Part shown: positions 1,602 through 49,267 of the stretch, piece after piece
How the letters are laid out: every line of letters begins with the position of its first letter
Position numbering within the stretch: the first letter of the stretch is position 1
From: Candidatus Omnitrophota bacterium
Lineage (GTDB): Bacteria; Omnitrophota; Gorgyraeia; Aquiviventales; Aquiviventaceae
Assembly: GCA_016209275.1 (NCBI GenBank)
Contig: JACQWM010000029.1
Location: forward strand, 2,692-66,691
DNA: 64,000 nt
Direction: 5' to 3'
The notes under the pieces: model-generated
The model's database searches: none
What the model saw: the letters and a program-made list of their open reading frames with translations, nothing else
What the model was told of the DNA's origin: nothing
Translations under genes and position numbers: made by a program

Positions 1602-1609
1602 GCCAGAGC

Positions 1610-1641
1610 GATATCAGATATCGAATTCGATATCTGATATC
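1610..1641. repeat. Perfect 32-bp palindrome GATATCAGATATCGAATTCGATATCTGATATC (family copy 1)
   Basis: Read directly from the sequence. Identical to the copy at 7176-7207, including the flanking ccagagc. Confidence 0.9.
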
Positions 1642-1698
1642 GCCGTTGTAGTTGAAGGATGTTACCGGCAGATGACGGCTGGGTTAAATCGAGGTAAC

Positions 1699-3546
1699 TT
1701 AGAGGCGCTGCAGCAGGGCGTTTAATTCATTCTGGAGATCAAGGATGGCTTGCTTGCGTTTGAGCCAGAACGGATCTTCAAGAGGAAATTGATCGAGGTA
1801 GGTAAGAAACTCCTGTTCCAGGGCCCGCTGCTCTTTGCCGAGGGCCTCCATCAGCCAGGGGAGCGTGTCCTCCCCGTCGTTCGGCGGCTGCCGGGCGAGA
1901 CGATCGAGATACGTCATGAAGCCGCTGCGATAGCGGACCATGAGAAAATGGGAGAAGGCCCAGCTTTGCGCATACGCATACAGCGCGCTCTGGTTGGCCA
2001 TGCCCGCAAAGCTGCCCATCCGGAAGGCATGGAGAAATTCGAGGGGAAGGATCTGCCCCGCGCCGCGGGCTTTCTGGGCATCCGGCAGACGCAACACATT
2101 GGTGCCGCCAACAGGGCTTGGTTCCATGTACCCGGCCAGCCCTTCGCTGAACCAGGAATTGGCCGCCTGAAGATCGGTGATCTGGTCTTCGTTCTCGGTG
2201 GCAAACATGGCTTCAAGCAGCTTCCGTTTCTCCTCCACGGTCCCCGCCTTCAGAAACTCGCGCTTCTGTTGCGCCTTGGCCTGATCCGCCTCCGACATCT
2301 TTGACAAGACGATATGCTGGAGCTGCCAATCGTGAAACATGGCGTGGGTCATTTCATGCCGGAGGATTTCATTGCCGAGCTGGCCGTAGGCCTGGCGCAC
2401 CATGGCGTGGCCGGACTCCAGCTTGCGCAAAAATTCCGACCACAGCCCCTCCAGCGTGTCTTCGTACTGCGAGCCTTTGTACGCCGCCGTGCTGCGATCG
2501 CGCGCGCGCCGGAAGCGGCCGAGATAAATCTCGGACAGCAGCTCGGAAAATTGCTCGCCGACCATGTTGTAGCAATACAAGACTTCATCCTCCGGCTGAA
2601 AATATCCCACCGCGAACCACCCGGGGACCCCATCCGTCAGCGCGTACTCGATATACGCATCCTGGTTTTCAAAGATCACGATGTACGCTTGGACGGTGGG
2701 AGCGCGATCCTTCACTAGGGGAAAGAACGTGAGGTACCAGTCGGTCGCGACCTCCCGGATCACCTGGCGGTACTTCTTGATATCCGGCGGGGCGGAATCG
2801 CTGACAATCGTGAAAAGCCCTTCATCGTCCCATGACATCTGGGGAAAAATGGTTTGGAGATTCTTCTTGATCGCCGTTGAGCGCTCATTCTGCGCCGGCC
2901 GAAAGAGCAGCGCCTCCACATCCTTCCGGGCGATGGTCTGCTCCATCTGCCCGCCGCCGGGCAGCTCCTGGGCGAGCACGATGTCCGTGTCGGTGACCTG
3001 GGTGATCTTGGCGTCGATCACGGTGCCCTTCATCAATTTCACGACCACCTCGTGCTGGTAATCCCAGGGAATGTTCTCGTGTTCGTGCTCCCAGGGCATG
3101 AGAATGCCATCGCCGCTCAGACTCGCCGCACCTTTTTCCACGCGCTCAATTTCATCGCGTCTGAAGCCGACATCGCCGTAGTCAAACCGCAGAATCACCT
3201 CCTCTGACGTTTCCTTCAGCAGCTCGCCGGTCATGGCCCCGCCATTGGTCAAATACAGCGTCACCTGATTGGTAGTCACGGGCGGGACGAGCGTACTCGA
3301 TGAGGATGCTGGAGTGGATGCTGGAGGCTGGAAGCTGGACGCTGGAGGCTGCGATGGCGTTGCCAGCTCCGGCGTTGTGGAAAACCGCTGTTGGGTTCTC
3401 TGAAGCAAAGCTCGCACCTGATCCGGCAGTTGCACGTGCTGCTGCAACGCATCCAGGGGCGAGTGTTCCGGGTGTGCGCGCAGATACCAGCTAGCACCTC
3501 CGGCCGCCAGCATGACCACGGCAAGGAGCAGCAGAAACGTGCGCAT
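1699..3546 (-). CDS. Secreted or anchored protein with an HExxH-like motif (HEMTHAM) and a Pro/Ser-rich linker; resembles DUF1570 / peptidase-MA-like proteins
   Basis: 615 aa. N-terminal hydrophobic segment MRTFLLLLAVVMLAAGGASW, then a PPASSFQPPASTPASSSS linker. HEMTHAMF and a downstream SWFSEGLAGY/E block are present. Family assignment is from memory only. Confidence 0.4.
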   Translation of the reverse strand: MRTFLLLLAVVMLAAGGASWYLRAHPEHSPLDALQQHVQLPDQVRALLQRTQQRFSTTPELATPSQPPASSFQPPASTPASSSSTLVPPVTTNQVTLYLTNGGAMTGELLKETSEEVILRFDYGDVGFRRDEIERVEKGAASLSGDGILMPWEHEHENIPWDYQHEVVVKLMKGTVIDAKITQVTDTDIVLAQELPGGGQMEQTIARKDVEALLFRPAQNERSTAIKKNLQTIFPQMSWDDEGLFTIVSDSAPPDIKKYRQVIREVATDWYLTFFPLVKDRAPTVQAYIVIFENQDAYIEYALTDGVPGWFAVGYFQPEDEVLYCYNMVGEQFSELLSEIYLGRFRRARDRSTAAYKGSQYEDTLEGLWSEFLRKLESGHAMVRQAYGQLGNEILRHEMTHAMFHDWQLQHIVLSKMSEADQAKAQQKREFLKAGTVEEKRKLLEAMFATENEDQITDLQAANSWFSEGLAGYMEPSPVGGTNVLRLPDAQKARGAGQILPLEFLHAFRMGSFAGMANQSALYAYAQSWAFSHFLMVRYRSGFMTYLDRLARQPPNDGEDTLPWLMEALGKEQRALEQEFLTYLDQFPLEDPFWLKRKQAILDLQNELNALLQRL

Positions 3547-3588: not shown

Positions 3589-4683
3589 TTACGAGCAGCC
3601 GGAGGGAGGGCAATCTTGCAGCGAGGTGAGCGCTGGACGCTGGATCGACATCGGCAGCACGACACTTTGCCCGGTGTTGCCGCCGCCCATCAGACGGATG
3701 TCATGATTCAAGGTCAGCCTGCCGTTGACGATCATGCCGTCATCCCGCCCGACGAATGACCCGTTGACCATCAAGTTCGTCGGCACCAGCCCGGTGATCG
3801 CATGGTTGGTGTAGAGCACGCCGTCGATCTGCATGGTGCCGGAGGCGGGCACAGCCAGCTTCGATCGGAAGGTGTCATCCGAGAGGGTCGACTCATAGAA
3901 CTTGCGGTCAGAGCCGTCGAGCTTCGTGCCTTCCGCCAGGCCGTCGTTGTCCCGCTGGTCGTAGTTGCCGTCGAACATCGGGCGGCCCTGCGCATCCGTC
4001 ATCTGGCCGCCAGCGCCGGTGTGGTAGCCCAAGTCGGCGTCGGTCGGGTCGATGACATAGGGCTGGGTCTTGGATCCGTCTTCGGCTTTGATCAGCGGAA
4101 GCGCGTTTTCCTCATACGCCTCGCTGGTGTAGTCGCCGATGACGATGTTGCCCTTTGCCGCAAAGCCGACCAGATCAGTCATCGTGGGATCAGGGATCGC
4201 CAGCTTGCCGGCTGCGTCCTTCACCTGCGGAAAACTGTAGTCGGCATCGCCTGGCACCGTGAAGCCATAGCGGTTCCAGGCGCAGGGGACGGCGGGGATC
4301 GTGCAGGCATTGCCGCAGATCTTCCCGCGGCCGGGGGTGGGCTGGCCGCAAACGGCCGGCTGAATCGCCAGGCACGTGTTGCCGCTGAGTGTTTTGGTGC
4401 ACGCGAAGTTGCACGGCGTGGTGGTCCCGTTCGTTGTCAGCGCATCGCAGCTTGGCGCGGGAGCGTTGCAGGTGAGGATGAGCTTCTTGTAACATATGCT
4501 GCCGCAGTTATTCGTTCCCGTCGTGTACGTATACGAGGTGCCGGATCTCGGGCTCGCGCACGTCGGCTCCGGCGCGTCGCATTCGGTCGGCGTGCAGGTG
4601 CCAGCGCCAAAGGCCGCCGCCTGCCACCAGAGCGCTCCCACAACCACCAAGACACGGCACAGCATCGCGACCGCGCGGTTCAT
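3589..4683 (-). CDS. Secreted Cys-rich protein (about 23 Cys in the first 140 aa) with an Asp-rich C-terminal half; fourth gene of pilin cassette 1
   Basis: Signal peptide MNRAVAMLCRVLVVVGALWWQAAAFGAG. Repeated CxxxC-type spacing; DGNYDQRDNDGLAEGTKLDGSD acidic loop. ATG lies 3 nt after the stop of the upstream large pilin-like gene. Confidence 0.6.
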   Translation of the reverse strand: MNRAVAMLCRVLVVVGALWWQAAAFGAGTCTPTECDAPEPTCASPRSGTSYTYTTGTNNCGSICYKKLILTCNAPAPSCDALTTNGTTTPCNFACTKTLSGNTCLAIQPAVCGQPTPGRGKICGNACTIPAVPCAWNRYGFTVPGDADYSFPQVKDAAGKLAIPDPTMTDLVGFAAKGNIVIGDYTSEAYEENALPLIKAEDGSKTQPYVIDPTDADLGYHTGAGGQMTDAQGRPMFDGNYDQRDNDGLAEGTKLDGSDRKFYESTLSDDTFRSKLAVPASGTMQIDGVLYTNHAITGLVPTNLMVNGSFVGRDDGMIVNGRLTLNHDIRLMGGGNTGQSVVLPMSIQRPALTSLQDCPPSGCS

Positions 4684-4686
4684 CGC

Positions 4687-6153
4687 TCAGCATCCCTCCG
4701 GCGCCGCCCCGTTCGGCGCCACATAAGTTCCGTCATTGCAGACCTTGCCAAGATTCGACATGATCCCGCTCGTGGTATTGTATTGGCGCACGACATCGGT
4801 GGCTTCGTACCGCTCTAGCGACGCCCACCCCGACGGATTCTTGTACACGATGGACCCCACGACATGAAGATTGCGGCCGGTGTAGATCGTCCCGCGGCCG
4901 CTCACGTAGCCCCGGATGATCACATCGCCGGGAATCACCACCGGGCCGTCGATCTTGATGGGGTTCGTGGACGTGCCGATGAGCACGATTGGCTGCTTCT
5001 CATCCCCTGTCTCGGCGGCGCCATCAGGCCCCTGATACGTCGCCGTGATCGTCTTCCATTGGCTGTTCTCGTAATATTTCAGGGTGGAGCCTGCCCCGTC
5101 GTTGTGCGACGCGGCCAGGCTTTTGTAGAGGCTCAGGTTTCCCAGATACGGCATGTCCTGCACCGGCTGCTGGCTGAATCTGACCTGCTCCGGCGCGCTC
5201 GCATGCCAGCCATAGCCGGCCCCCAGGGCGGCGGTGGCCCCGCTGATCGCCGGCTGGCCGGCGGCCGTAATCTGCTGGGCCGGGCGGGCTCGCTGGTCCG
5301 ACCGCTTATAGTCCCAGTAGGCGTTCCACGACGCGGTTTGCGTGGGGTTGCCGGTAATGGTCCCGACGGCCGCAAGGCCGGTCTCCGGATTGATGAGCTC
5401 GTCGTTTTCCGACGCATACAGATCGCCGTTGACGTAGATTTTCGTCAGCTGGCCGCCGGAAACCACGTCGCTCGTAAAATCGAGATCGCCGTTGGCGCGC
5501 ACTTCGCCGTTGACGACCACGGACGCTCCACCGCGGATGTCAAACCACCCGTAGTTGTTGACGAAATAGGCGTAGCGGAAAATATCCGACACCCCCAGGG
5601 CGATGTCATACGTCGCCTGCAGCTGCTTCGTGATCCCCCCGACCGTCGCCTGGCCGATCACCGTGATGCGGCGCGGGGAGAGCGTGTCGTCGGGATTCGT
5701 GGTCTCAACCGAGCTGATCCAAGCCTCGCCGGTCCCGCTGCTGAAGGCCACGCTTCGCGGCGAGGCTTGCGTGCCAAGGCCGGCCACGTGGTAGGTGTCA
5801 TCCGCCTCCAGCGCAAACGGCGGGTCGAGGTCTTGCGGCGGCTGCTCATCGAAGGCATCCAGCCACTGCAGGGCAGCCAGCGCATTGCCCTGATAGCGCA
5901 GTTGGTAGACATCCGCCGCCAGGAACTGATAGAAATCTTCGCGCAGCTGCTGCAGCGACGCCTGGGCCAGATCGCGGGCTTGCAGCGCATCGCGCAGATG
6001 CTCAACGCTCAGCCGCTGGGCCGCCGCCCGCTGGCTCAGCGCACCGCTATAGACGAGGAAGACCGTCAGCACCATGAAGCTGCTGATCAGCACAAACCCC
6101 CGCTTTCTCTTTTCCTTAATCACCGTAATCATCTTTACGGATTCTGCACCCAC
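4687..6153 (-). CDS. Large PilX/GspK-like minor pseudopilin (cassette 1); start alternatively at 6132
   Basis: KRKRGFVLISSFMVLTVFLV is a class-III signal-like N-terminus with no Glu at +5. About 480 aa. C-terminal region is paralogous to the 522/523-aa proteins of cassettes 2 and 3. Confidence 0.6.
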   Translation of the reverse strand: MGAESVKMITVIKEKRKRGFVLISSFMVLTVFLVYSGALSQRAAAQRLSVEHLRDALQARDLAQASLQQLREDFYQFLAADVYQLRYQGNALAALQWLDAFDEQPPQDLDPPFALEADDTYHVAGLGTQASPRSVAFSSGTGEAWISSVETTNPDDTLSPRRITVIGQATVGGITKQLQATYDIALGVSDIFRYAYFVNNYGWFDIRGGASVVVNGEVRANGDLDFTSDVVSGGQLTKIYVNGDLYASENDELINPETGLAAVGTITGNPTQTASWNAYWDYKRSDQRARPAQQITAAGQPAISGATAALGAGYGWHASAPEQVRFSQQPVQDMPYLGNLSLYKSLAASHNDGAGSTLKYYENSQWKTITATYQGPDGAAETGDEKQPIVLIGTSTNPIKIDGPVVIPGDVIIRGYVSGRGTIYTGRNLHVVGSIVYKNPSGWASLERYEATDVVRQYNTTSGIMSNLGKVCNDGTYVAPNGAAPEGC

Positions 6154-6608
6154 ACTTGCGATTCCAGCGTTTGGGCCAGCTCTGACCGCATCCCATTGCC
6201 TCGCACGACGAGCTGCACCTTCACGACGTTATCCGCCTGGCAGGTGGGAGTGAAGGCGGTCAGCCCTCCGGCTACCGTCGTCGCCGGGTCGTTGTTGACC
6301 TGCTTGGTCAGCAGCGCTCCGGCGCGCGCGTAGGTGATTTGGTCAGCGCCCACCCTCATCTGCAGCGAATCCGCAGCGCAGGCCAACCCTGCGGTCGCGG
6401 AAGCTCGCCGCAGATCCTCGACGATGCGGTCCATGGCGATCTGGGCCCCGGTCGTGTTGGCGAGCGAGTCATCCGTGTGCTGCCAGATCCGATTGCCGGT
6501 CTGGGTCATGACGAGCAGCGAGCCGCTCATCAGGCTAAAGACCGTCGCCACCACCATGACCTCGACAAAGGTAAACTCCCCTCGGCGATTCCATCGTCTG
6601 CGTCTCAT
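6135..6608 (-). CDS. Prepilin-type N-terminal cleavage/methylation-domain pseudopilin, medium (cassette 1)
   Basis: The ORF track extends to 6749, but ATG at 6606-6608 overlaps the upstream TGA (ATGA) and gives MRRRRWNRRGEFTFVEVMVVATVFSL, a pilin-type N-terminal motif. Confidence 0.6.
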   Translation of the reverse strand: MRRRRWNRRGEFTFVEVMVVATVFSLMSGSLLVMTQTGNRIWQHTDDSLANTTGAQIAMDRIVEDLRRASATAGLACAADSLQMRVGADQITYARAGALLTKQVNNDPATTVAGGLTAFTPTCQADNVVKVQLVVRGNGMRSELAQTLESQVWVQNP

Positions 6609-7141
6609 CACGAGTCTCTCCGTCCCATGCGGGTGGACACCATCACCGGCGATTGCAGCCATCCGTCCGCGTCTACCTGCTCGCCAACATCGAACTGGCC
6701 GTTGCAATTGCGATCGCCGCCGATTTGCCGCCCCCGCTCCCGCCAGCACGCCGCCACATGCAAATCCAGCAGCGACGGATTGCCGGGATTGTGCAGATCT
6801 CCGCTTTTAATTTGGATCGTCAAAACACCTTGAGCACCCGCCGGCAGCCCGGTCAGGGGCGCGCTTTGCCCGTTGCCACGAGCGCCTGCATATGCAGGCC
6901 CGGTCCAGAGGGTGTCCAGCGGGGTGGCGGAGAGCTGATCTAGCTGGCCCTGCGCGGCGTTGAGCGCGGCCTGCGCATGGCTGAAGTAATCGACCTGGAA
7001 GAGCAGCGAGGGCATGCCCATCAGCAAGCCGCCGATGCCGACGACGAGCAAGGCCACACCGACGACCAGCTCAAGCAAGGTCATCCCGGACGCAAAACAT
7101 CCGACCCGCAGACGCGATGGACCTCGGATCGGATTGTGCAT
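6608..7141 (-). CDS. Prepilin-type pseudopilin, small (cassette 1)
   Basis: Start at MHNPIRG (ATG 7139-7141), preceded by AAGGGGG. Leader ...FASG^MTLLELVVGVALLVV has Glu at +5. The track ORF begins 27 nt earlier at 7168. Confidence 0.65.
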   Translation of the reverse strand: MHNPIRGPSRLRVGCFASGMTLLELVVGVALLVVGIGGLLMGMPSLLFQVDYFSHAQAALNAAQGQLDQLSATPLDTLWTGPAYAGARGNGQSAPLTGLPAGAQGVLTIQIKSGDLHNPGNPSLLDLHVAACWRERGRQIGGDRNCNGQFDVGEQVDADGWLQSPVMVSTRMGRRDS

Positions 7142-7175
7142 GACAACCCCCTTTGGCAACCCAGCCATCCAGAGC

Positions 7176-7207
7176 GATATCAGATATCGAATTCGATATC
7201 TGATATC
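7176..7207. repeat. 32-bp GATATCAGATATCGAATTCGATATCTGATATC palindrome (copy 2) in the cassette-1 5' leader
   Basis: Perfect palindrome, 8 nt upstream of the first in-frame ATG (7168). Confidence 0.9.
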
Positions 7208-7232
7208 GTCTTAGGACCTGTGGCTTTGCGAC

Positions 7233-7248
7233 CCACGCTTACGCGTGG
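7233..7248 (-). promoter_or_regulatory. Leader hairpin 1 (sense CCACGC-GUAA-GCGUGG, GNRA loop), cassette 1
   Basis: Plus strand ccacgcttacgcgtgg. The homologous positions in cassettes 2 and 3 are cctggattactccagg: a different 6-bp stem with the identical loop and flanks, i.e. full covariation. Confidence 0.6.
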
Positions 7249-7261
7249 TGTGCCTTTATCA

Positions 7262-7276
7262 GTAGGGTTTACCTAC
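7262..7276 (-). promoter_or_regulatory. Leader hairpin 2 (GTAGG-N5-CCTAC), cassette 1
   Basis: gtagggtttacctac here; the cassette-2 equivalent gtagggcccgcctac (10287-10301) keeps the stem with a different loop. Confidence 0.45.
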
Positions 7277-7290
7277 TTTTTCCTAATTTA

Positions 7291-7319
7291 AGTATACCTA
7301 ATGCGCCGAGACACTGACA
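7291..7319 (-). promoter_or_regulatory. Candidate sigma70 promoter of cassette 1 (sense TTGTCA-18-TATACT)
   Basis: Sense strand ...tTTGTCAgtgtctcggcgcattaggTATACTtaaa; the TAAGTATACCT block is conserved in the cassette-2 leader. Confidence 0.4.
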
Positions 7320-7322
7320 AAC

Positions 7323-8891
7323 CTACGGGCGCTGCTCTGCCCAGGCCACGAAGTCATAACGGCCGGTGTTCGGAAACGAGGGTGGGGCCAGGCGCAGCAG
7401 CCGCGCATCATAGACGTAGTCCTTGTCGAACCCGTCTCCGGCGCCGGTTTTCGCATCGATATTCCATCCCACCAGCCCTCGTTCATCCTGGATAAGCCCC
7501 CCAAAAAGATGCAGCCGCCCCTTGTAGCCAATCCTCGCTCGTTCATCGCTGTCGTCCTTCTTATAGGCGCCTTTGACCGTGAACGTCCGCAGCGCCATCA
7601 CCGAGCCTTGGATCATAATCCCAATAGGCGGTCGCGCAGGGTCCGGCAGGTGGACGCGATCAGGGAATTTGGTTTCATCGGAGGTATCCACGATGATATC
7701 TTTCCGTGAGACCAAGCCAAGCAGGTCACGGCTTTCTCCGTTGTCACAGGCAGGGTTGTTCTGCCGATCCTCGTCTGTGACCGGAGTGCCATCGGCGTTG
7801 ACGCTATCCGGGTTGCAGGCATAGATGATGTGCCCTTGGATCGTCATGTCCTCCTGGCTGGCCAGCGTCACCTGGCCGTGGAGTATGCTATCCTCCACCG
7901 TCAACTCCTCCTTCCCAAGTATGACGAGCTTGCCGGCAATCGTGTATCGAACTTCCAGGATGCTAGGATCCGCCGCGTTCGGGGTAGGGGCAAGTTTGTT
8001 GCCCTTCAATTTCACCTCGTCCACCCCCTTGCCTGTCACCACGAGTTCGTACCTCTGTGGGCCATCTGGTTGCAGTAGATCAATGGGATGCTGCTCGAAT
8101 CGGACCACGGCGTCATCGCCAATCACGATGCCGGAAGCCTTGGCCGCCGGCACGAGGTCCTCGTCGAAGCGTTTCTTCGCCTCGGGCATAGGAATCGGCT
8201 TCTCGAGTTTTTGAGGCAGCTCCGCATACGTCGGGTTGCACGGAGCGCTCGTGCACACAATCGCCCCGGTGTAGGACACCGGCCCGAGAAACGTCGGGCT
8301 CCCCATGATGTACAAATTGTCATTAACGTGCACCGGCCCTCTGAGCACTTCAGCGCCTGTCATGTTGATCGCTTGCCCTTTTTTATACTTATTCCAAAAC
8401 ATCAGATACTTCGAAAAACTCTCTCGTTTGATCGTCATGGCCGCCGTTCGCGTGACGGCAATGCCTGTCGTCGTGCCGCTGGCCGTAATCGTAAAAGCCG
8501 CCTGGGCAGGCTCAGCCTCATTCAGGTCATCCGGATCAACCGTCACCGTGAACGACCCTGAGCCAGGGAAGGTTTGAATGATCCCGCCCAGCTCCGGGGT
8601 AAAGGCGCTGGTCAGGGACGCGCATTGTTGCCCTTCAACAGCAAACTCGTCGGAGCAGACCGGCCGTTCGTCTTCCGCCAGCAGCCATTGCACCCCCGCA
8701 TCAAGCCCGGCTTCGGCCAAGGCTAAGGCGCGCTGCTGGGTGGCGGCACGTCGGGCGATGGCGGTATCGTTCATCGTCCGCAGCAGACCCACGGAGAGGA
8801 GTGTTGAGATCCCAGCGCTGGTCACCAAGGCCAACAGTAACAGCGAGCCTTGCCGCGGTCGTCTCATGAGCCTCCCCCCTTTCCTCATCAT
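7323..8891 (-). CDS. Large PilX/GspK-like minor pseudopilin (cassette 2)
   Basis: 522 aa. N-terminus RRPRQGSLLLLALVTSAGISTLL. Long identical blocks shared with the 523-aa cassette-3 protein (ESFSKYLM, DSVNADGTPVTDEDRQNNP, LHLFGGLIQDERG, GFDKDYVYD). Confidence 0.65.
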   Translation of the reverse strand: MMRKGGRLMRRPRQGSLLLLALVTSAGISTLLSVGLLRTMNDTAIARRAATQQRALALAEAGLDAGVQWLLAEDERPVCSDEFAVEGQQCASLTSAFTPELGGIIQTFPGSGSFTVTVDPDDLNEAEPAQAAFTITASGTTTGIAVTRTAAMTIKRESFSKYLMFWNKYKKGQAINMTGAEVLRGPVHVNDNLYIMGSPTFLGPVSYTGAIVCTSAPCNPTYAELPQKLEKPIPMPEAKKRFDEDLVPAAKASGIVIGDDAVVRFEQHPIDLLQPDGPQRYELVVTGKGVDEVKLKGNKLAPTPNAADPSILEVRYTIAGKLVILGKEELTVEDSILHGQVTLASQEDMTIQGHIIYACNPDSVNADGTPVTDEDRQNNPACDNGESRDLLGLVSRKDIIVDTSDETKFPDRVHLPDPARPPIGIMIQGSVMALRTFTVKGAYKKDDSDERARIGYKGRLHLFGGLIQDERGLVGWNIDAKTGAGDGFDKDYVYDARLLRLAPPSFPNTGRYDFVAWAEQRP

Positions 8892-8895
8892 CGCG

Positions 8896-9534
8896 TCATC
8901 CGATCGTGTTGCGCAGCTTCACCTGGGTCACCAATGGCGCGTCTTGAGGGCTCGCCCCCATCTGCCCCCCAGGCAGCTGAGCCGAAAGCTGCTGAACCGC
9001 GAGCCGTATGACCACAATGTGCGTTTGCGTGTTGTAGGTAAAGTCGAGAAGCCTCGCGTAGTGCGCCAGCACCCGGCCGCTGCCGTCTTTCAGATTGCCG
9101 CCCTCATCCAGAATATCTCGCACGAGCTGAATCGAACCATTCAACCGATAGCGCAGAAACCAGCCCGCCTTATGCGCCCCTTGCTGGTCAGGCGCTCCCC
9201 ACATCATGTTCCCGGTCCCCGAATCGTACTGGCCCACCTGAAACGTGACCGACTCGCTTTGGTCCGGGACGATTTGGGCGATGATGAGATTCGCTGCGCC
9301 CGGCCGCGCTTGCCGCAGCTCGTTGGTCATGTTCGCGAGCGCCTGGCGCGCTTGCTGCTGGACAACCACGTACATCTCCGAAGAGATCGAGGCGCGCTGC
9401 GCGGTCATCATGGCGGTCCCCACCGCCCCCACGACCACCGCCATCACCACCGCGACAAAGAGAGTTTCCACCAGCGTCGCCCCGCAAGCGCTTCCCAGAC
9501 GCGCACGATCATGGTGGATTGTTGTGTCATTCAT
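8896..9534 (-). CDS. Prepilin-type pseudopilin, medium (cassette 2)
   Basis: ...ACG^ATLVETLFVAVVMAVVVG with Glu at +5. ATG 9532-9534 overlaps the upstream TGA (ATGA). The track ORF starts at 9543. Confidence 0.65.
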   Translation of the reverse strand: MNDTTIHHDRARLGSACGATLVETLFVAVVMAVVVGAVGTAMMTAQRASISSEMYVVVQQQARQALANMTNELRQARPGAANLIIAQIVPDQSESVTFQVGQYDSGTGNMMWGAPDQQGAHKAGWFLRYRLNGSIQLVRDILDEGGNLKDGSGRVLAHYARLLDFTYNTQTHIVVIRLAVQQLSAQLPGGQMGASPQDAPLVTQVKLRNTIG

Positions 9535-10166
9535 CGACGGCAACTCACGAGTGTTTGCAGTTGCGCCGGAGAGGTGATGATCCCATCGTTATTGCCGATC
9601 GGCGGCGCATCTTCCGGCACCAATTGCGCGCCGTCCCACCGGCATTCCCCGGTCACGCGGCCGCCCTGCCGCCAGCAGACCGCGATCGTCGCCCTCAGCG
9701 GATTAAAATCCGTATCCCCCGCCTGGACGTTCCATTCGCCTGCCCCAACTTGAGTCGCCGTCCCGCAGGGCGTGGCGATGTTCCTGCTGTCGCGGCACGT
9801 CACAATGATCCGCTCGTTGATGTCCGGCATCGGTTGGATGCTCTTGCCCCCGCCTGCCACCGCCATTCACTCATTCCAACTGGCTCCCCCCGGCGGTTGG
9901 ACGGTGGGCGTAAGGCATGTATCCGAGGTATTTTGCTGTCGGAGCTGCTCGAAGACGCGGCCGGCGTCGTTCATGGCCCAGGTGAGGTTGCGCGAGGACT
10001 CATTCATCGCCGCCTGCTGCACTAGCCACGCCAGCAACCCGGCAATCCCCATCATGAAGATCAGGCTCGCGACGGCCAGCTCGATCATCGTCAACCCGCT
10101 GCTGGCTGAGCAGGCAACAAAAAATCCGATCCTGGAACGTCGCGGACGTCGGATCGGATGGAACAT
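9531..10166 (-). pseudogene. Small pseudopilin of cassette 2 interrupted by an in-frame TGA at 9867-9869
   Basis: Track ORFs 9867-10217 and 9531-9866 are colinear with the single 201-aa cassette-3 paralog. ...PPGGASWNE*WMAVAGGGKSIQP aligns with ...LSWDAWLADLNGGGGKSIRP. N-terminus is MFHPIRRPRRSRIGFFVACSASSG^LTMIELAV. Confidence 0.55.
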
Positions 10167-10200
10167 CGCAACCCCCTTTGGCAACCCAGCCATCCAGAGC

Positions 10201-10232
10201 GATATCAGATATCGCATTCGATATCTGATATC
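10201..10232. repeat. 32-bp palindrome copy 3 (GATATCAGATATCGCATTCGATATCTGATATC, one central mismatch) in the cassette-2 leader
   Basis: Read directly from the sequence; same flank ccagagc as copies 1 and 2. Confidence 0.9.
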
Positions 10233-10257
10233 GTCTTAGGACCTGTAGCTTTCCGAC

Positions 10258-10273
10258 CCTGGATTACTCCAGG
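10258..10273 (-). promoter_or_regulatory. Leader hairpin 1 (sense CCUGGA-GUAA-UCCAGG), cassette 2
   Basis: Covaries with the cassette-1 copy; flanks ...agctttccgacc and gtgtggcttt are conserved. Confidence 0.6.
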
Positions 10274-10457
10274 TGTGGCTTTCTCAGTAGGGCCCGCCTA
10301 CTGCTTCCCGTATCTGCCTAACCTGATAAGTATACCTGGTCTGTTGTAACTCCTTCAAATGGCGATGCGTTATGTTACTGTTGCTCTTCAACTTGCCAAC
10401 TCGTCATCCGCGGCCGCTTCATAACAATGGGGATGACGGGCTCCGATGCAAACCGCG

Positions 10458-12029
10458 CTAGCGCGTATCGTCCCAATAGAGGAACTCGTAGCGGCCCGTG
10501 GTCGGGAACGACGGCGGGGTCATGCGCAGCAACCGGATGTCATACACGTAGTCCTTGTCGAATCCGTCTGCGCCTGGCTGGTTGATATTCCACCCCACAT
10601 AACCACGCCTGTCTTGAATGAGCCCTCCAAATAGATGTAACAGGCCTTTATACCCAAGGTTGTCATTTCGCACATCCCCTGGCACGCTGCCGCCTCCCTT
10701 GACATAGAAGGTCTTGAGGGCCATCACCGAGCCATGAATGGTTAGACCAATGTCCGCTCCCGGACCCCCTGCGACGGGCACGCCTACATTAGGCAGTGCT
10801 GCTGTATCGACAGCGATGTTGTTTCTCGACACCAAGCCCAGGAGATCGAGGCTCTCCCCTTCGTCGCAGTCGGGGTCGTTCTGACGATCTTCGTCTGTGA
10901 CCGGGGTGCCGTCTGGGTTGACGCTATCAGGGTTGCACGCATAGACGATATTCCCCTTGATGGTCATGTCGTCATGGCTCGCTAACGTAACCTTTCCATG
11001 GAGCTCTCCGCCATTGATGATCACCTCATGGTCTCCGACGATAAGCAGGGGTTCGGTTAGATCCACCACGAGGGCGTCTTGGCCCGCCGGCCTTGACACG
11101 GTGATCCCCTTGACCTGGATCTGCCCACCATCGGGAACATCGTCAAGCTCGACCCTAGTCCCTTTGACCGCGATCTCGACGTCGTCATCGTCGGCTGCAA
11201 ATTTCATCTTGTCCCCCAGCATCGTCACGGTGGTGTCATGCTTCAGACGAAGCCCGTCATCACTGGCTCGCTGGACCAGGTTGGGGAAATCTGACAGCCG
11301 GTCTGGCAGGGGGACCTCCTCGACCCTTTTCGGCGGGCTATCTTCATAGCGCGGGGCGCAGGCATCACACTGAATAGCCCCGACATACTCGACCGTGGAC
11401 TTGAATGTTGGGGTCCCCTTCAGATACAGATTGCCCCCTGTGTAAACGGGTCCATCCATGGTTTCATTCGTGGAAAAGTAGATTACCGCATTGTTCGCAT
11501 ATCGTTTGTAATACATGAGAAACTTTGAAAAGCTCTCCCGCTTCAGGGCAACGGTCACCGTCCGCTGAGAAGGAAATGCGCCGACCGTTGTTCCTGTCGC
11601 GCGAATGGTAAAGGTGGCGCTGGAGGGATCGGTGCCATTTTCGTCACCCGGATCCACCGTGACCGTGAAATCGCCAACTCCTGGGAGGCTCAGCGGCGTG
11701 GCCACGTCGGGAGTAAAATCATCGGTTGTCCCGCCTTGACACTCTTGAGCCACTTGGTTGCCTGGAAGCGTAGGTTGGCTGCACTCAGGCAGCCGGTTCT
11801 GGCTCTTCTCGATCACCCACTGGATGCCTGCATCAAGCCCGGCTTCGGCCAGGGCAAAGGCTTGCTGATTGGCGGCTGAACGCTGGGCAATGCTGCTTTC
11901 GTTCATCGCCCGGATCTGGCCAATTGACAGCAGTGTGGCTACTAGCGCGGTGAGCATCAGCGCACTCAGCAGTATCGCCCCTCGTCGTGCCTGTCTCATG
12001 ACGGTCCTCCTTGCGTTGTTCAGAGTCAT
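10458..12029 (-). CDS. Large PilX/GspK-like minor pseudopilin (cassette 3)
   Basis: 523 aa, RRGAILLSALMLTALVATLL. ATGA overlap with the upstream gene. Paralog of 7323-8891. Confidence 0.65.
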   Translation of the reverse strand: MTLNNARRTVMRQARRGAILLSALMLTALVATLLSIGQIRAMNESSIAQRSAANQQAFALAEAGLDAGIQWVIEKSQNRLPECSQPTLPGNQVAQECQGGTTDDFTPDVATPLSLPGVGDFTVTVDPGDENGTDPSSATFTIRATGTTVGAFPSQRTVTVALKRESFSKFLMYYKRYANNAVIYFSTNETMDGPVYTGGNLYLKGTPTFKSTVEYVGAIQCDACAPRYEDSPPKRVEEVPLPDRLSDFPNLVQRASDDGLRLKHDTTVTMLGDKMKFAADDDDVEIAVKGTRVELDDVPDGGQIQVKGITVSRPAGQDALVVDLTEPLLIVGDHEVIINGGELHGKVTLASHDDMTIKGNIVYACNPDSVNPDGTPVTDEDRQNDPDCDEGESLDLLGLVSRNNIAVDTAALPNVGVPVAGGPGADIGLTIHGSVMALKTFYVKGGGSVPGDVRNDNLGYKGLLHLFGGLIQDRRGYVGWNINQPGADGFDKDYVYDIRLLRMTPPSFPTTGRYEFLYWDDTR

Positions 12030-12640
12030 CCTCCACTGGTATTGCGGAGTTTCACCTGGGTTGTCACGATACCCGGACTGACCGCGGCCGGACCGCCGGC
12101 CATTTGACCGGCCGCCTGCCTGATCTGCAAGCGCACCGTGGCCATCCGACTGTCCTGATCGTACGCAAAGTCCAACAGTTGTGCGTCATTGGCAAGCACG
12201 CGTCGACCGCCAGGGACGAGGATGCCACCGGGATTCAAGATCTCTCGGACGAGCTGGGTGCCATTCAATCGGTACTGAAGAAACCAGTTCTCTCGGTGAT
12301 CCCCACTCAGATCCGGCGCCCCCCAAACCATCTCTGTTACCTCGAACCTGCCCACCTGAAATCTGAGTACGTCGTGGGTGTCCGGGTTAATCCCCCCAGT
12401 GGTATCCGTAATCTGCATATGGACATTCGGGGGCCTATTCGGCCTGGCCAGCCGCAGTTCCTCCGCCATGGCATCGAGCGCCTGGCGTGCTTGCTGCTGC
12501 GCGTGCACGTAGGCGGCTGAGGTCACCGACGAGCGTTGGGATGATAACATGATCGTGGTCACCGAACCTATCACGAGCGTAAAGAGTAATGCAACCACCA
12601 GGATTTCGACGAGCGTGGCACCTTTCACTCGTCTCTTCAT
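12026..12640 (-). CDS. Prepilin-type pseudopilin, medium (cassette 3)
   Basis: MKRRVKG^ATLVEILVVALLFTLVIG. ATGA overlap with the upstream TGA. C-terminus ...VTTQVKLRNTSGG parallels ...VTQVKLRNTIG in cassette 2. Confidence 0.65.
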   Translation of the reverse strand: MKRRVKGATLVEILVVALLFTLVIGSVTTIMLSSQRSSVTSAAYVHAQQQARQALDAMAEELRLARPNRPPNVHMQITDTTGGINPDTHDVLRFQVGRFEVTEMVWGAPDLSGDHRENWFLQYRLNGTQLVREILNPGGILVPGGRRVLANDAQLLDFAYDQDSRMATVRLQIRQAAGQMAGGPAAVSPGIVTTQVKLRNTSGG

Positions 12641-13182
12641 CGTCGACAACTCATGACGGTTTGCAACTGCGCAGGCGAGTTCACCACGTTGGGGTCTCCA
12701 CTGGCCCCAGGGTTGTTCTCGATGAGCAAATTGCCATTCCAGGTACAGTCGCCAATGGTCCGGCTGCGATGGCGCCAGCAGACGGCAATGGTAAGATGGA
12801 TCGGATCATCGCCAGCTCCGCAAAAGCCCGAGTTATCAGCTTTTTGGCAAGTTACCGCAATAAGCTCATTAGAATCAGGCCGGATGCTTTTCCCGCCACC
12901 CCCATTGAGATCCGCAAGCCAAGCATCCCAACTCAGATACGCTACAGGGAGTTGCGGGGGTAGCGCGCTTGGTGTTACACACGCATCGGATGTATTTTGC
13001 TGCCGGATGCGCTCCAGCACGCGCCTGGAATCGTTCATGGCCAGCGTGAAGTTGCGGGAGTGCTCATTGAGCACCGTTTGCGAGACGATGGCTCTAAAGA
13101 ATCCGGCGAGACCTATCACGAGGATGAAGACGCCGATCAGCACCTCCATCGCCGTCATGCCTCCCGTGGTTCGATCTGGCAT
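12637..13182 (-). CDS. Prepilin-type pseudopilin, small (cassette 3), intact
   Basis: MPDRTTGG^MTAMEVLIGVFILVIG, a 7-aa leader. RBS AGGGAG 8 nt upstream of ATG 13180-13182. C-terminus SPAQLQTVMSCRR matches the cassette-2 copy. The track ORF starts at 13242. Confidence 0.65.
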   Translation of the reverse strand: MPDRTTGGMTAMEVLIGVFILVIGLAGFFRAIVSQTVLNEHSRNFTLAMNDSRRVLERIRQQNTSDACVTPSALPPQLPVAYLSWDAWLADLNGGGGKSIRPDSNELIAVTCQKADNSGFCGAGDDPIHLTIAVCWRHRSRTIGDCTWNGNLLIENNPGASGDPNVVNSPAQLQTVMSCRR

Positions 13183-13320
13183 GGGACACCACTCCCTAAA
13201 AACAATTTCGCCGGGTTTCCGATTTGGTGCGCTTACGCGCACGCTCTTTCGGCAACCCGGCGATCCTTGTTCTCTTCGGCAGCCTGGCTATCCGTCGAGC
13301 AGGACCCGTGGCTTTCCGAC

Positions 13321-13336
13321 CCTGGATTACTCCAGG
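13321..13336 (-). promoter_or_regulatory. Leader hairpin 1 (sense CCUGGA-GUAA-UCCAGG), cassette 3
   Basis: Identical to the cassette-2 hairpin. This leader has no GATATC palindrome. Confidence 0.55.
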
Positions 13337-13371
13337 TGTGGCTTTATCGTGAGGTACTCGCGTACATATTA

Positions 13372-13399
13372 ACTATATCCCACAACGCTGCGAGTGTCA
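13372..13399 (-). promoter_or_regulatory. Strong candidate sigma70 promoter of cassette 3 (sense TTGACA-17-TATAGT)
   Basis: Sense gtgTTGACActcgcagcgttgtgggaTATAGTtaat. Plus strand tgtcaa 13394-13399, actata 13372-13377. Confidence 0.55.
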
Positions 13400-13418
13400 A
13401 CACAAATCTTAATAAAAG

Positions 13419-14432
13419 TTATTGCGAGACTACTCCCACAGTCCCCACGTCGTAGGTCTGCCCGGCACTCAGATCAGGCACGTCCACCACACGAGCCCGA
13501 AATGTCGTCGCCGACGCACCACTGGGCGCCCCAAATCCGTCAGGATCCTCAAGGATGCGTGTCTCCGGAGGCTCCACCCGAAACTGGTAGCGTCCTGGAG
13601 GAATGCCCGGCAGCTCAAAGCGCCCAGCGGCATCCGAGCGGCGCTGGCGATCCACCAACCCGCTAAATCCGGTGAGGACCGTCTTGTTGGTCGCTCGATC
13701 GATCACGCGCAGGCTCGCCCCGATCAGCGGTGCATCGCCACGCACCACGCGCCCGGTGAGTGTCGCGGTGGCGCGTTCCAATGGAGCCTCGGCGTTGGGA
13801 TACAAGACCGCCAGGCCGACGAGGTCATCGTTGCTGAGCACTGGCAAGTGGCTGACCATCGTCATGACACTCGGGGCCACCGAATGGCCCAGCCCAAGAC
13901 AATGGCCGATCTCGTGCATGATGATGCTCTTGACCTCAGGCAGCGTAAAGGGCGCCCGGGGCTGCACCAGGATATCGCAGTCCGCGGCAAAGACAAATGC
14001 GCGGCCGACGACCAACACCCCCTGACGCGCAGCACCTGGGGCCGGCCAAAAAATCACGTTCTGGCCGTCGGGCTGTGCTGAGGTTTTTTCGGGATCGTTG
14101 ATGATGTCACCGACGCGAAACGACAGCCCGACCGACTCCATCTGCCTCCACACCTTCAGCGCATCCTGCACCATCTGCCGCATCTGCGCCTCGGAGTAGG
14201 CGGCCGGCGCATTGGCCATGTTGATGGTGAAGGCGACCGGCTCCCCCTTCGGCCAGCGGGTGCGCTGTGCCCGCAACCCGAAGGCCTCGCCTCGATGCGG
14301 TGGCAGCACGAAGAAGACGACTAAGACGGTGGTGACCAAGTGGCTGGGTGGCCGGGTGGCCGGGAAAACTCTTTGGCCACTTGGCCACCTGGCCACTTGG
14401 CCACTGCTTAGCGTTTTCGGAGTGCTACTCAT
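13419..14432 (-). CDS. Secreted zinc metalloprotease of the metzincin type (HEIGHCLGLGH) with a C-terminal CarbopepD-regulatory-like beta-sandwich
   Basis: HExxHxxGxxH plus a downstream SVM Met-turn. C-terminal LTGRVVRGDAPLIGASLRV...GRYQFRV motif. ATG 14430-14432 lies 2 nt after the RR stop; an alternative TTG/GTG start is near 14336. The REP-like hairpin falls inside the 5' coding region. Confidence 0.6.
   Translation of the reverse strand: MSSTPKTLSSGQVARWPSGQRVFPATRPPSHLVTTVLVVFFVLPPHRGEAFGLRAQRTRWPKGEPVAFTINMANAPAAYSEAQMRQMVQDALKVWRQMESVGLSFRVGDIINDPEKTSAQPDGQNVIFWPAPGAARQGVLVVGRAFVFAADCDILVQPRAPFTLPEVKSIIMHEIGHCLGLGHSVAPSVMTMVSHLPVLSNDDLVGLAVLYPNAEAPLERATATLTGRVVRGDAPLIGASLRVIDRATNKTVLTGFSGLVDRQRRSDAAGRFELPGIPPGRYQFRVEPPETRILEDPDGFGAPSGASATTFRARVVDVPDLSAGQTYDVGTVGVVSQ
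14338..14400. repeat. REP-like GC-rich hairpin element, copy A ((GTGGCCGG)2 - aaaactcttt - GGCCACTTGGCCACCTGGCCACTTGGCCAC)
   Basis: Two arms complementary with G-U wobble. A near-identical copy is at 15114-15192 and a variant at 24771-24832. Confidence 0.75.
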
Positions 14433-15108: not shown

Positions 15109-15110
15109 CG

Positions 15111-16901: not shown

Positions 16902-16911
16902 AATCAAGGCC

Positions 16912-16947
16912 ATATCAGATATGAAATGGCCATTTCATATCTGATAT
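16912..16947. repeat. Perfect palindrome ATATCAGATATGAAATGGCCATTTCATATCTGATAT (GATATC family, GGCC centre)
   Basis: Read directly; sits in the -35 region of the nadE promoter. Confidence 0.9.
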
Positions 16948-16964
16948 CGCTCGTGATGGGGCCA

Positions 16965-17000
16965 TATCAGATATCAAATGGCCATTTGATATCTGATATC
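16965..17000. repeat. Perfect palindrome ATATCAGATATCAAATGGCCATTTGATATCTGATAT (second tandem copy)
   Basis: Read directly; 17 bp from the previous copy. Confidence 0.9.
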
Positions 17001-17061
17001 GTAGTTAGGTGGGGAGGGGGAATTCCGCGGATTGGCCGTTATGGAAGGGAGACAGGCCTGA

Positions 17062-33426: not shown

Positions 33427-33501
33427 GAAGCAGGGTTTGGTTAGGTTAGTAGGCAACCGCTGGATGATTGGGCCCAAGTGATTTTCGAGGAGGTATCGGG
33501 A

Positions 33502-33711: not shown

Positions 33712-33751
33712 TTGATCATATCTTCCGAAAGTATAAGAACAAGGGAAAGTA

Positions 33752-44718: not shown

Positions 44719-44719
44719 A

Positions 44720-49258: not shown

Positions 49259-49267
49259 ATCCTTGAA

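What the first reader, a model, noticed from the sequence alone, without database searches (positions are those of the whole stretch)
3589..13242. Three tandem paralogous cassettes of minor (pseudo)pilins with no major pilin, ATPase, platform or secretin
Cassettes at 13182->10458, 10166->7323 and 7141->4687 each encode small, medium and large proteins with class-III (prepilin) N-termini, in that order and ATGA-coupled. The small and medium ones carry Glu+5; the roughly 500-aa one does not, as in GspK/PilX. This mirrors the GspI/J/K or PilV/W/X tip-complex logic, but the large subunit has an unusually big C-terminal domain. Cassettes 2 and 3 share long identical blocks; cassette 1 is more divergent. 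Cassette 1 alone adds a Cys-rich secreted protein. No major pilin or assembly machinery is in the window. One reading is three alternative tip modules for a filament machine encoded elsewhere, or an undescribed pilin-like surface or secretion system. The array is flanked on the same strand by a metzincin and a DUF1570-like HExxH protein, which could be substrates or partners.
Basis: partly seen in the sequence, partly recalled or inferred. Interest (0 to 1): 0.85.

Follow-up and report, generated by a model that had tools for sequence, protein, structure and literature searches.

The report
Riboswitch-gated alternative pilus-tip gene cassettes
An uncultured Omnitrophota bacterium carries three side-by-side gene sets for the tip complex of a type IV pilus, each behind its own c-di-GMP-sensing RNA switch, which suggests that the cell chooses among pilus tips according to this second messenger.

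Summary

- Each cassette has its own sigma-70-like promoter and a c-di-GMP-I riboswitch aptamer (Rfam, 56-66 bits). Seven independent related loci carry the same riboswitch.
- In the divergent cassette, the large pilin and the "Cys-rich secreted protein" are the two halves of a protein that is a single ~560-aa chain in other Omnitrophota. This split is conserved.
- The small gene of the middle cassette has an in-frame TGA.

Syntenic relatives carry one, two or about two and a half cassettes at the same site. The flanking metzincin and DUF1570 genes are not conserved there. No assembly machinery is in the window.

Best reading: c-di-GMP-gated, alternative tip/priming modules for a type IVa pilus machine encoded elsewhere. 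This is a new variant of a known kind, with precedents in Thermus ComZ, cyanobacterial PilX sets and the Myxococcus clusters. Whether c-di-GMP switches the cassettes on or off is unresolved.

The parts
13372..13400 (-). sigma-70-like promoter of cassette A (TTGACA-17-TATAGT)
   Evidence: 11 of 12 matches
13274..13351 (-). c-di-GMP-I class riboswitch aptamer, cassette A
   Evidence: RF03167, 65.6 bits (gathering 59), E 3e-13. The nucleotide that defines the GGC variant is A here, as in canonical c-di-GMP-I.
13198..13262 (-). terminator-like hairpin (CGCCGGGTTGCCGA...TCGGAAACCCGGCG) plus T-run in the A leader. Its 5' arm duplicates the 3' half of the aptamer.
   Evidence: The same layout, with changed stem sequences, is found in L024 and L028.
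12637..13182 (-). cassette A small prepilin-like protein (181 aa, PilV/GspI-like)
   Evidence: G|MTAME N-terminus. TIGR02523 PilV 24.7 bits, below threshold. Orthologues pass Pfam N_methyl.
12026..12640 (-). cassette A medium prepilin-like protein (204 aa, PilW/GspJ position)
   Evidence: G|ATLVE N-terminus. N_methyl 18 bits. ATGA overlap at both ends.
10458..12029 (-). cassette A large pilin (523 aa), ComZ/PilX-type, no Glu5
   Evidence: 49% identical to the B large protein. DUF4900 24.2 bits, PilX_N 15.9 bits, GspK 19.8 bits, all below threshold.
10329..10358 (-). sigma-70-like promoter of cassette B
   Evidence: 9 of 12 matches
10177..10289 (-). c-di-GMP-I riboswitch aptamer, cassette B, with a REP-like palindrome in the loop of the second helix. 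Its 3' end abuts the RBS AAAGGGGG.
   Evidence: RF01051, 55.8 bits (gathering 35). Palindrome.
9531..10166 (-). cassette B small prepilin-like gene, interrupted by an in-frame TGA at 9869-9867
   Evidence: Trp in the paralogue and orthologues (SWDAW) becomes a stop here.
8896..9534 (-). cassette B medium prepilin-like protein (212 aa)
   Evidence: G|ATLVE N-terminus. 49.7% identical to the A medium protein.
7323..8891 (-). cassette B large pilin (522 aa), ComZ/PilX-type
7291..7320 (-). sigma-70-like promoter of cassette C
   Evidence: 10 of 12 matches
7151..7263 (-). c-di-GMP-I class riboswitch aptamer, cassette C, with the same palindromic loop insertion
   Evidence: RF03167, 63.6 bits. Its first hairpin differs from that of A and B by compensatory changes (CCACGC/GCGTGG against CCTGGA/TCCAGG).
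6608..7141 (-). cassette C small prepilin-like protein (177 aa)
   Evidence: G|MTLLE N-terminus. Orthologues in L024, L030 and L031 at E 1e-29 to 1e-46.
6135..6608 (-). cassette C medium prepilin-like protein (157 aa), atypical G-EFTFVE N-terminus
4687..6132 (-). cassette C large pilin (481 aa): the N-terminal part of a split ComZ/PilX-type protein
   Evidence: Residues 6-436 match P0241 residues 11-374, 33% identity, E 1e-60.
3589..4683 (-). secreted partner (364 aa): signal peptide, three 4-Cys repeats, then the C-terminal part of the split ComZ/PilX-type protein
   Evidence: Residues 170-352 match P0241 residues 392-555, 40% identity, E 4e-35. 109 homologues. A partner follows every C-type large gene seen.
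1699..3546 (-). DUF1570 HExxH protein, 42 nt downstream of the partner gene. Possibly co-transcribed, but not conserved in relatives.
   Evidence: Only a remnant in L024, absent in L030 and L031.
13419..14558 (-). M10 metzincin upstream of cassette A, a separate transcription unit, absent in syntenic relatives

Best explanation
The locus holds three independently transcribed modules. A fourth lies elsewhere in the same genome. Each module encodes the core of a type IV filament tip/priming complex. That core is a PilV/GspI-like small pilin, a PilW/GspJ-like medium pilin, and a PilX/GspK-class large pilin that carries an ice-binding-protein-like beta-solenoid, as in Thermus ComZ and cyanobacterial PilX.

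By analogy with those systems, the trio would sit on the inner-membrane platform of a type IVa pilus machine encoded elsewhere. It would prime polymerisation of the major pilin and end up at the filament tip, where the solenoid acts as plug and adhesin.

Each module is gated by its own c-di-GMP-I riboswitch. Cassette A uses a terminator. In B and C the aptamer abuts the ribosome-binding site. The c-di-GMP level would therefore decide which tip modules are made.

In module C the large pilin is split. The pilin carries the helix, the pilin sheet and about two thirds of the solenoid. A Sec-secreted partner supplies the rest, plus a variable Cys-rich N-terminal head.

Shown: gene content, prepilin-type N-termini, fold similarity, riboswitch aptamers, the split, and copy-number variation among relatives.

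Inferred: tip location, priming role, use of a T4aP machine, response to c-di-GMP, and association of the two halves.
For: Prepilin-type N-termini are read directly. N_methyl passes in 6 of 10 small and 5 of 10 medium orthologues.

Fold of the large proteins:

Riboswitches:
- Three aptamers above the Rfam gathering score, each with a promoter.
- The same riboswitch precedes homologous genes in L018, L022, L024, L026, L029, L030 and L031.

Split of the C-type large pilin.

Comparative context:
- The same small-medium-large order occurs in other phyla, with a GspH-like pilin next to it. A PilB/GspE ATPase lies 2.5 kb away in the KSB1 loci.
- Copy number at the syntenic site is 1, 2, about 2.5 and 3.

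Literature:
- ComZ is tip-located and binds PilA2 (PMC6561018).
- Two PilX-solenoid minor-pilin sets prime two different filaments on one machine (bioRxiv 10.64898/2026.02.12.705559).
- Three minor-pilin/PilY1 sets serve one machine in Myxococcus (PMC7541494).
- T4aP genes are common in all Omnitrophota classes (PMC10066038).
Against: - No major pilin, prepilin peptidase, ATPase, platform or secretin could be examined for this genome. The link to a T4aP machine rather than a T2SS or competence machine is indirect.
- The cassettes lack a GspH/FimU-type fourth minor pilin.
- All Pfam and NCBIfam hits of the window's own small, medium and large proteins are below threshold, except DUF4900 in B large.
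- No sequence-level match to ComZ or to any solved structure was found.
- The B small gene carries an in-frame stop, so that module may be decaying.
- 16 loci from other genomes (4 Omnitrophota, the rest other phyla), plus metagenome loci L017 and L019-L021, have the large gene without a riboswitch.
- The direction of regulation could not be derived.
Confidence: 0.7

Rival explanations
1. The cassettes are pseudopilus tip complexes (GspI-J-K) of a type II secretion-like system. That system would export the neighbouring metzincin and DUF1570 proteases.
Against: The metzincin is absent and DUF1570 is absent or decayed at the syntenic site in L024, L030 and L031. The closest structural relative is a pilus tip protein, ComZ. 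The solenoid-bearing PilX class has been described for T4P, not for T2SS (PMC6561018; bioRxiv 10.64898/2026.02.12.705559).
Confidence: 0.1
2. One or more cassettes build a short competence pseudopilus whose ComZ-like tip is a DNA receptor. The locus would then serve DNA uptake rather than adhesion or motility.
For: The best structural match is ComZ, which binds DNA and is essential for transformation (PMC6561018). Cyanobacterial PilX_Com sets prime competence pili (bioRxiv 10.64898/2026.02.12.705559).
Against: Identity to ComZ is only 18%, and the DNA-binding lysines could not be mapped. No com genes are in the window. c-di-GMP control and the Cys-rich variable heads are more typical of adhesins.
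Confidence: 0.12
3. The array is the product of recent duplication at a recombination hot spot and has no functional specialisation. Some copies are decaying.
For: In-frame TGA in the B small gene. Variable copy number and scrambled gene order in relatives such as L024, L028 and L004. REP-like elements sit inside two of the riboswitch loops.
Against: A and B are only 49% identical, yet both keep intact large and medium genes, their own promoters and aptamers that score above threshold. C belongs to a distinct, widely conserved four-gene type.
Confidence: 0.08

Closest known systems
ComZ with PilA2/PilA3 of the Thermus thermophilus competence pilus (PDB 6QVI; PMC6561018)
   Different: There is no detectable sequence similarity. 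This locus has three to four paralogous sets per genome, riboswitch control, one set with the protein split in two, no adjacent major pilin, and unknown DNA binding.
Cyanobacterial core minor pilin sets FimT-PilW-PilV-PilX (Com and EPS types), bioRxiv 10.64898/2026.02.12.705559
   Same: PilX carries a triangular solenoid like that of ice-binding proteins. Alternative sets prime different filaments on one machine. Expression is linked to second messengers, including c-di-GMP.
   Different: The present cassettes have no FimT/GspH member. Control is by cis-acting c-di-GMP-I riboswitches rather than CRP-type regulators. The host phylum is different. A split PilX has not been described there.
Myxococcus xanthus cluster_1-3 (FimU, PilV, PilW, PilX, PilY1), PMC7541494
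   Same: Three paralogous tip/priming sets serve one machine. PilX lacks Glu5. A Sec-secreted non-pilin protein with a conserved C-terminal domain and a variable N-terminal domain sits on PilX, which parallels the module-C partner.
   Different: No PilY1 domain is present here (no Pfam hit). The partner is a detached piece of the PilX solenoid itself. No FimU is present.
GspI-GspJ-GspK tip complex of type II secretion (PDB 3CI0)
   Different: GspK has a small helical insertion, not a ~300-residue solenoid. No T2SS genes lie nearby.
c-di-GMP riboswitch control of type IV pilus genes in Clostridioides difficile (Cdi-2-4 upstream of pilA1; PMC6200980)
   Same: A cis-acting c-di-GMP riboswitch gates pilus genes through transcription termination.
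   Different: That one is a class II riboswitch in front of the major pilin operon. Here class I aptamers sit in front of each minor-pilin module.

Membership tests
Type IV pilin-like proteins (class III signal peptide) | Short basic leader, Gly at -1, hydrophobic +1, Glu at +5, followed by ~20 hydrophobic residues | tested here: met
   Read directly for all three small proteins and for two of the three medium proteins. C medium has G-EFTFVE, which puts Glu at +6.
Type IV pilin-like proteins (class III signal peptide) | Pfam N_methyl (PF07963) at the gathering score | tested here: inconclusive
   The window proteins score 12.9-18 bits against a cutoff of 21.2. Six of 10 small and 5 of 10 medium orthologues match at E down to 1e-8.
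Type IV pilin-like proteins (class III signal peptide) | Cleavage and N-methylation by a prepilin peptidase | not testable with these tools
   No peptidase gene is in the window.
PilX/GspK-class minor pilin | Pilin-type N-terminal helix without Glu5 | tested here: met
   G|AILLS, G|SLLLL, G|FVLIS. The AF2 model has a helix at 14-72. PMC7541494 states that PilX and GspK lack Glu5.
PilX/GspK-class minor pilin | Family HMMs: PilX_N (PF14341) and T2SS_GspK (NF037980) | tested here: not met
   15.9 bits against 25.5, and 19.8 against 130. Fused C-type homologues are named 'PilX N-terminal domain-containing' by NCBI.
PilX/GspK-class minor pilin | Fold similarity to GspK | tested here: met
ComZ-like solenoid pilins | Beta-solenoid of the ice-binding-protein type inserted in the pilin fold | tested here: met
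ComZ-like solenoid pilins | Sequence homology to ComZ | tested here: not met
   A profile search of PDB sequences found nothing significant.
ComZ-like solenoid pilins | Binding to the PilV-like pilin and to DNA; tip location | not testable with these tools
   This needs biochemistry.
c-di-GMP-I riboswitch (Rfam clan CL00126) | Covariance-model score at or above gathering | tested here: met
   65.6, 55.8 and 63.6 bits.
c-di-GMP-I riboswitch (Rfam clan CL00126) | Ligand-contact nucleotides equivalent to Vc2 G20, A47 and C92 (PMC4744006) | tested here: met
   By alignment to the Rfam consensus, there is a G before and an A after the closing pair of the first hairpin, and GCC in the 3' strand, in all three aptamers. 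The mapping of the numbering is my own.
c-di-GMP-I riboswitch (Rfam clan CL00126) | Binding of c-di-GMP and ligand-dependent gene control | not testable with these tools
   This needs in-line probing and reporter assays.
c-di-GMP-I-GGC variant (RF03167) | G instead of A at the position equivalent to A47 | tested here: not met
   The consensus is GACGCGAAGCC. The window has GUCGGAAAGCC or GUCGCAAAGCC. I treat these aptamers as canonical even though RF03167 gave the best score for A and C.
Verru_Chthon pseudopilin cassette (TIGR02599) | NCBIfam score at cutoff | tested here: not met
   21.9 bits against 256.5.
PilY1 tip adhesin | C-terminal PilY1 beta-propeller domain | tested here: not met
   The partner has no Pfam or NCBIfam hit. 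Its C-terminal part is homologous to the PilX solenoid.
Pfam DUF4900 | Gathering score 29.4 | tested here: met
   B large scores 29.7 bits. A large (24.2) and C large (19.1) are below the cutoff.

The most novel reading that the evidence does not exclude
Module C may be a two-chain tip adhesin. A truncated solenoid pilin would be completed in trans by a Sec-secreted protein. That protein supplies the last third of the solenoid, probably also the closing strands that return to the pilin sheet, and a hypervariable Cys-, Pro- or Gly-rich head. This would be a fission-derived analogue of the PilX-PilY1 pair. Per-module c-di-GMP riboswitches with different expression platforms would then let the second-messenger level select which tip 'warhead' is mounted on a single pilus machine.
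Probability: 0.35. Interest if true: 0.7.

Novelty: new variant of a known kind. Interest (0 to 1): 0.55.

Why it matters
Minor-pilin tip complexes decide what a type IV pilus does: adhesion, DNA uptake or motility. How cells choose among alternative sets is only now being worked out.

Here the choice appears to be hard-wired in cis. Each tip module has one second-messenger riboswitch, and the pattern recurs across Omnitrophota, a phylum of mostly ultra-small, possibly host-dependent bacteria in which pili are thought to mediate cell-cell contact (PMC10066038). That makes "tip switching by c-di-GMP" testable with simple RNA and reporter assays.

The conserved, clean split of a ComZ/PilX solenoid pilin into a pilin and a secreted partner also offers a natural experiment. 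It bears on how non-pilin tip proteins such as PilY1 could have arisen and how they dock onto PilX.

Tried and rejected
- A word-indexed homology search with the B large protein found only itself. The exhaustive profile search was needed.
- Alignments A3 and A4 were too divergent to seed a genome scan. A5 worked.
- BLASTP of the Cys-rich protein against the A large protein showed nothing. The relationship appeared only through fused homologues of the C type.
- Profile searches of PDB sequences with the large, small and medium alignments gave no match, or only weak matches to the pilin N-terminal helix.
- No exact record of P0001 was found for context.
- An Rfam E-value search of L028 did not recover the aptamer, which is cut by the contig end. 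The case there rests on alignment A9.
- I tried to derive ON or OFF logic by folding. For the A leader the minimum-energy fold is aptamer (first 3' half) plus terminator, at -84 kcal/mol. The fold using the second 3' half is -69.9 kcal/mol. Both halves look ligand-competent, so the direction stays open. The B and C folds gave no clear sequestration of the ribosome-binding site.
- I could not retrieve the paper that describes the GGC variant.
- The afdb50 fold library was unavailable.
- The idea that the palindrome in the B and C leaders is a protein operator was dropped. The same element occurs at 1603-1657 and near 16908-17001, so it is a dispersed REP-like repeat.

Full report
**Observation.** The region holds ten co-oriented minus-strand genes in three groups.
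- Cassette A: small 13182->12637, medium 12640->12026, large 12029->10458.
- Cassette B: small 10166->9531, medium 9534->8896, large 8891->7323.
- Cassette C: small 7141->6608, medium 6608->6135, large 6132->4687, then a 364-aa Cys-rich protein with a signal peptide, 4683->3589.

The small and medium proteins start with a short basic leader, then Gly, a hydrophobic residue and Glu at +5. C medium is odd, with G-EFTFVE. The three large proteins have the same kind of leader and hydrophobic helix but no Glu5.

A and B are about 49% identical in all three proteins. C is 26-34% identical to either.

ATGA overlaps exist at three of the six junctions. The B small gene has an in-frame TGA at 9869-9867, where the paralogue and orthologues have Trp.

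A motif scan found no other pilin-like N-terminus in the window. Pfam scans of 30 other ORFs found TonB/ExbB, TCA-type enzymes, cytochrome bd, hydrogenase maturation, NosZ/NosD, transporters and similar functions. None is a filament ATPase, platform, secretin or peptidase.

**Source.** B large and the Cys-rich protein are identical to proteins of a 'Candidatus Omnitrophica bacterium' MAG, locus-tag prefix HY737, on a contig of 67,341 nt.

**What the proteins are.** Family HMMs give only weak hits for the window's own proteins. These are N_methyl, PilV, GspK, PilX_N and Verru_Chthon cassette protein C, all below their cutoffs. DUF4900 just reaches its cutoff in B large. N_methyl is clear in orthologues of the small and medium proteins.

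An exhaustive profile search with the three large proteins found 1617 cluster representatives at E<=1e-3. They fall cleanly into an A/B type and a C type.

ComZ is a pilin with a beta-solenoid inserted in the pilin fold. It is argued to fit only at the pilus tip, and it binds the small pilin PilA2 (PMC6561018). A 2026 preprint reports the same architecture for all cyanobacterial PilX proteins. [quoted passage not shown] The large proteins here are therefore PilX/GspK-class minor pilins of the ComZ type. The trio corresponds to the I-J-K (PilV-PilW-PilX) core of a tip/priming complex. The cassettes contain no GspH/FimU-type member.

**Regulation.** Rfam finds a c-di-GMP-I class aptamer in front of each cassette:
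- 13351-13274, 65.6 bits.
- 10289-10177, 55.8 bits.
- 7263-7151, 63.6 bits.

A sigma-70-like promoter lies 20-40 nt upstream of each aptamer.

Two of the aptamers score best with the GGC-variant model. However, the nucleotide that distinguishes that variant is A here, as in canonical aptamers. The equivalents of the Vc2 contacts G20, A47 and C92 (PMC4744006) are present by my alignment to the consensus. I therefore expect c-di-GMP as the ligand. The first hairpin of aptamer C differs from that of A and B by fully compensatory changes.

In B and C, the loop of the second helix holds a perfect 33-nt palindrome. The same element also occurs at 1603-1657 and, as variants, near 16908-17001, so it is a dispersed REP-like element rather than an operator. 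In these two leaders the aptamer ends about 10 nt before the start codon, overlapping AAAGGGGG. This suggests control of translation.

In A, the aptamer is followed by a second copy of its own 3' half. That copy forms the 5' arm of a strong hairpin followed by a T-run. The same layout, with different stem sequences, precedes homologous genes in L024 and L028. This suggests control of transcription termination.

I could not decide whether c-di-GMP turns the cassettes on or off. In C. difficile, class I riboswitches act as off switches, while the class II switch before pilA1 is an on switch (PMC6200980).

**The riboswitch link recurs.** Seven independent loci with homologous genes carry a c-di-GMP-I aptamer at their head: L018, L022, L024, L026 (and its copy L027), L029, L030 and L031. 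The aptamer lies before the small gene in L026, L030 and L031, and directly before the large gene in L018, L022, L024 and L029.

A fourth cassette of the same MAG (P0004 = HY737_06935, locus L028, order large-small-medium) is preceded by the 3' part of such an aptamer plus a terminator. The contig end cuts it.

Sixteen loci from one genome per species, four of them Omnitrophota and the rest other phyla, have none.

**The split pilin.** The Cys-rich protein has 109 homologues. About two dozen of them are ~560-aa Omnitrophota proteins that also match C large. NCBI names some of these 'pilus assembly PilX N-terminal domain-containing protein'.

For P0241 (561 aa):
- Residues 11-374 align with C large residues 6-436 (33% identity, E 1e-60).
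- Residues 392-555 align with the Cys-rich protein residues 170-352 (40% identity, E 4e-35).

Across 39 split large proteins, the homology to P0241 ends at a median residue of 381. Across 105 partners, it begins at a median residue of 387.

Every C-type large gene I saw is immediately followed by a partner gene: one in the window, two in L024, three in L029, two in L030 and one in L031. The N-terminal regions of the partners vary (Cys-rich, Pro-rich or Gly-rich), while the C-terminal domain is conserved.

I infer that the partner is exported by Sec and completes the solenoid of the truncated pilin. It probably also supplies the final strands that return to the pilin sheet. Its variable head would then sit at the extreme tip. 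This parallels PilY1, whose conserved C-terminal domain docks on the minor pilins and whose variable N-terminal domain faces outward (PMC7541494). This association is not shown.

**Comparative context.** The locus sits between NadE plus a GlnR-like response regulator on one side and a ~104-aa winged-helix gene on the other. The same site holds different numbers of cassettes in relatives:

| Locus | Cassette content at the syntenic site |
|---|---|
| L031 | one C-type cassette |
| L030 | two C-type cassettes |
| L024 | a scrambled set of about two and a half |
| this window | three, of which A and B are of the single-chain type |

The M10 metzincin is absent from all three relatives. DUF1570 is absent from two and is a 60-aa remnant in L024. 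The flanking proteases are therefore not conserved companions.

In distant phyla (Armatimonadota-like, Bacillota and Kiritimatiellia MAGs), the same small-medium-large order occurs. A GspH-like pilin lies next to it in L008 and L013. In KSB1 loci, a PilB/GspE ATPase with an MshEN domain lies 2.5 kb away. This ties the family to type IV filament machines. Genes for most T4aP components are reported in the large majority of genomes of all Omnitrophota classes (PMC10066038).

**Mechanism proposed.** Each module is transcribed from its own promoter. The nascent leader senses c-di-GMP and sets how much of the module is made. The small, medium and large proteins are inserted in the inner membrane and processed by the prepilin peptidase. 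They assemble into an I-J-K-like complex with the solenoid pilin on top. This complex primes polymerisation of the major pilin on a T4aP machine encoded elsewhere and is carried to the tip, where the solenoid (plus the partner head in module C) plugs the filament and binds a target.

Different modules would give different tips, and possibly different filament types, as shown for cyanobacteria and proposed for Myxococcus. The gene content, motifs, fold, aptamers and the split are shown. The remaining steps are inference from homologous systems.

**Verdict.** The 'alternative tip modules' reading is supported, and the 'undescribed system' and 'protease substrates' readings are not. The locus is a new variant of a known kind. 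Its distinguishing features are per-module c-di-GMP-I riboswitches, recurrent across Omnitrophota, and a conserved split form of the ComZ/PilX solenoid pilin.

Noticed in passing
window 1603-1657, 7169-7223, 10194-10248, 16908-17001: A REP-like perfect palindrome (CGATATCAGATATCGAATTCGATATCTGATATCG) is dispersed in intergenic DNA. Two copies sit inside the loops of riboswitches B and C. One follows the DUF1570 gene, where it could act as a terminator.
   Followed up: partly
window 14327-14405 and 15101-15187: A second palindromic repeat family is built of GGCCGG/GGCCAC units between the metzincin, response-regulator and NadE genes. Translated, it gives spurious N- or C-terminal extensions such as 'WPSGQVAKWP' and 'GHPATRPPGH'.
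   Followed up: no
window 9867-9869: An in-frame TGA in the cassette-B small pilin gene sits where the paralogue and orthologues have Trp, and is directly followed by ATG. It could be a nonsense mutation, an assembly error or a two-piece gene.
   Followed up: partly
window 6578-6608: The cassette-C medium pilin has G-E-F-T-F-V-E instead of G-F-T-L-V-E. The conserved Glu would therefore be at +6 after cleavage at Gly.
   Followed up: no
L028 (same MAG, gene HY737_06935): A fourth cassette lies elsewhere in the same genome, in the order large-small-medium. It is preceded by the 3' part of a c-di-GMP-I-like aptamer and a terminator, both cut by the contig end.
   Followed up: partly
window 13198-13300; L024 8355-8450; L028 1-105: These leaders carry two near-identical copies of the aptamer's 3' half, and the second copy forms the 5' arm of the terminator. 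Infernal used the first copy in the window and the second in L024.
   Followed up: partly
window 24841-26943 (-): A 701-aa protein fuses malate/lactate dehydrogenase domains to a citrate synthase domain. It lies next to a succinyl-CoA-ligase-like pair, possibly a citrate-cleaving or reverse-TCA module.
   Followed up: no
window 31784-34000: GC content drops to 0.49 against about 0.6 elsewhere, around a D12-class adenine methyltransferase gene. This may be a foreign island or a restriction-modification system.
   Followed up: no
window 42666-54056: A NiFe hydrogenase with hyp maturation genes, NosZ-like and NosD genes, and cytochrome bd (28615-30982) indicate a respiratory, N2O-reducing metabolism in this Omnitrophota MAG.
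   Followed up: no
L007 12275-13963 and L011 14519-16207: In KSB1 MAGs, a PilB/GspE ATPase lies about 2.5 kb downstream of the ComZ-like gene. In L007 it carries an MshEN domain, a known c-di-GMP-binding module. c-di-GMP may therefore act on the machine there rather than on the mRNA.
   Followed up: no
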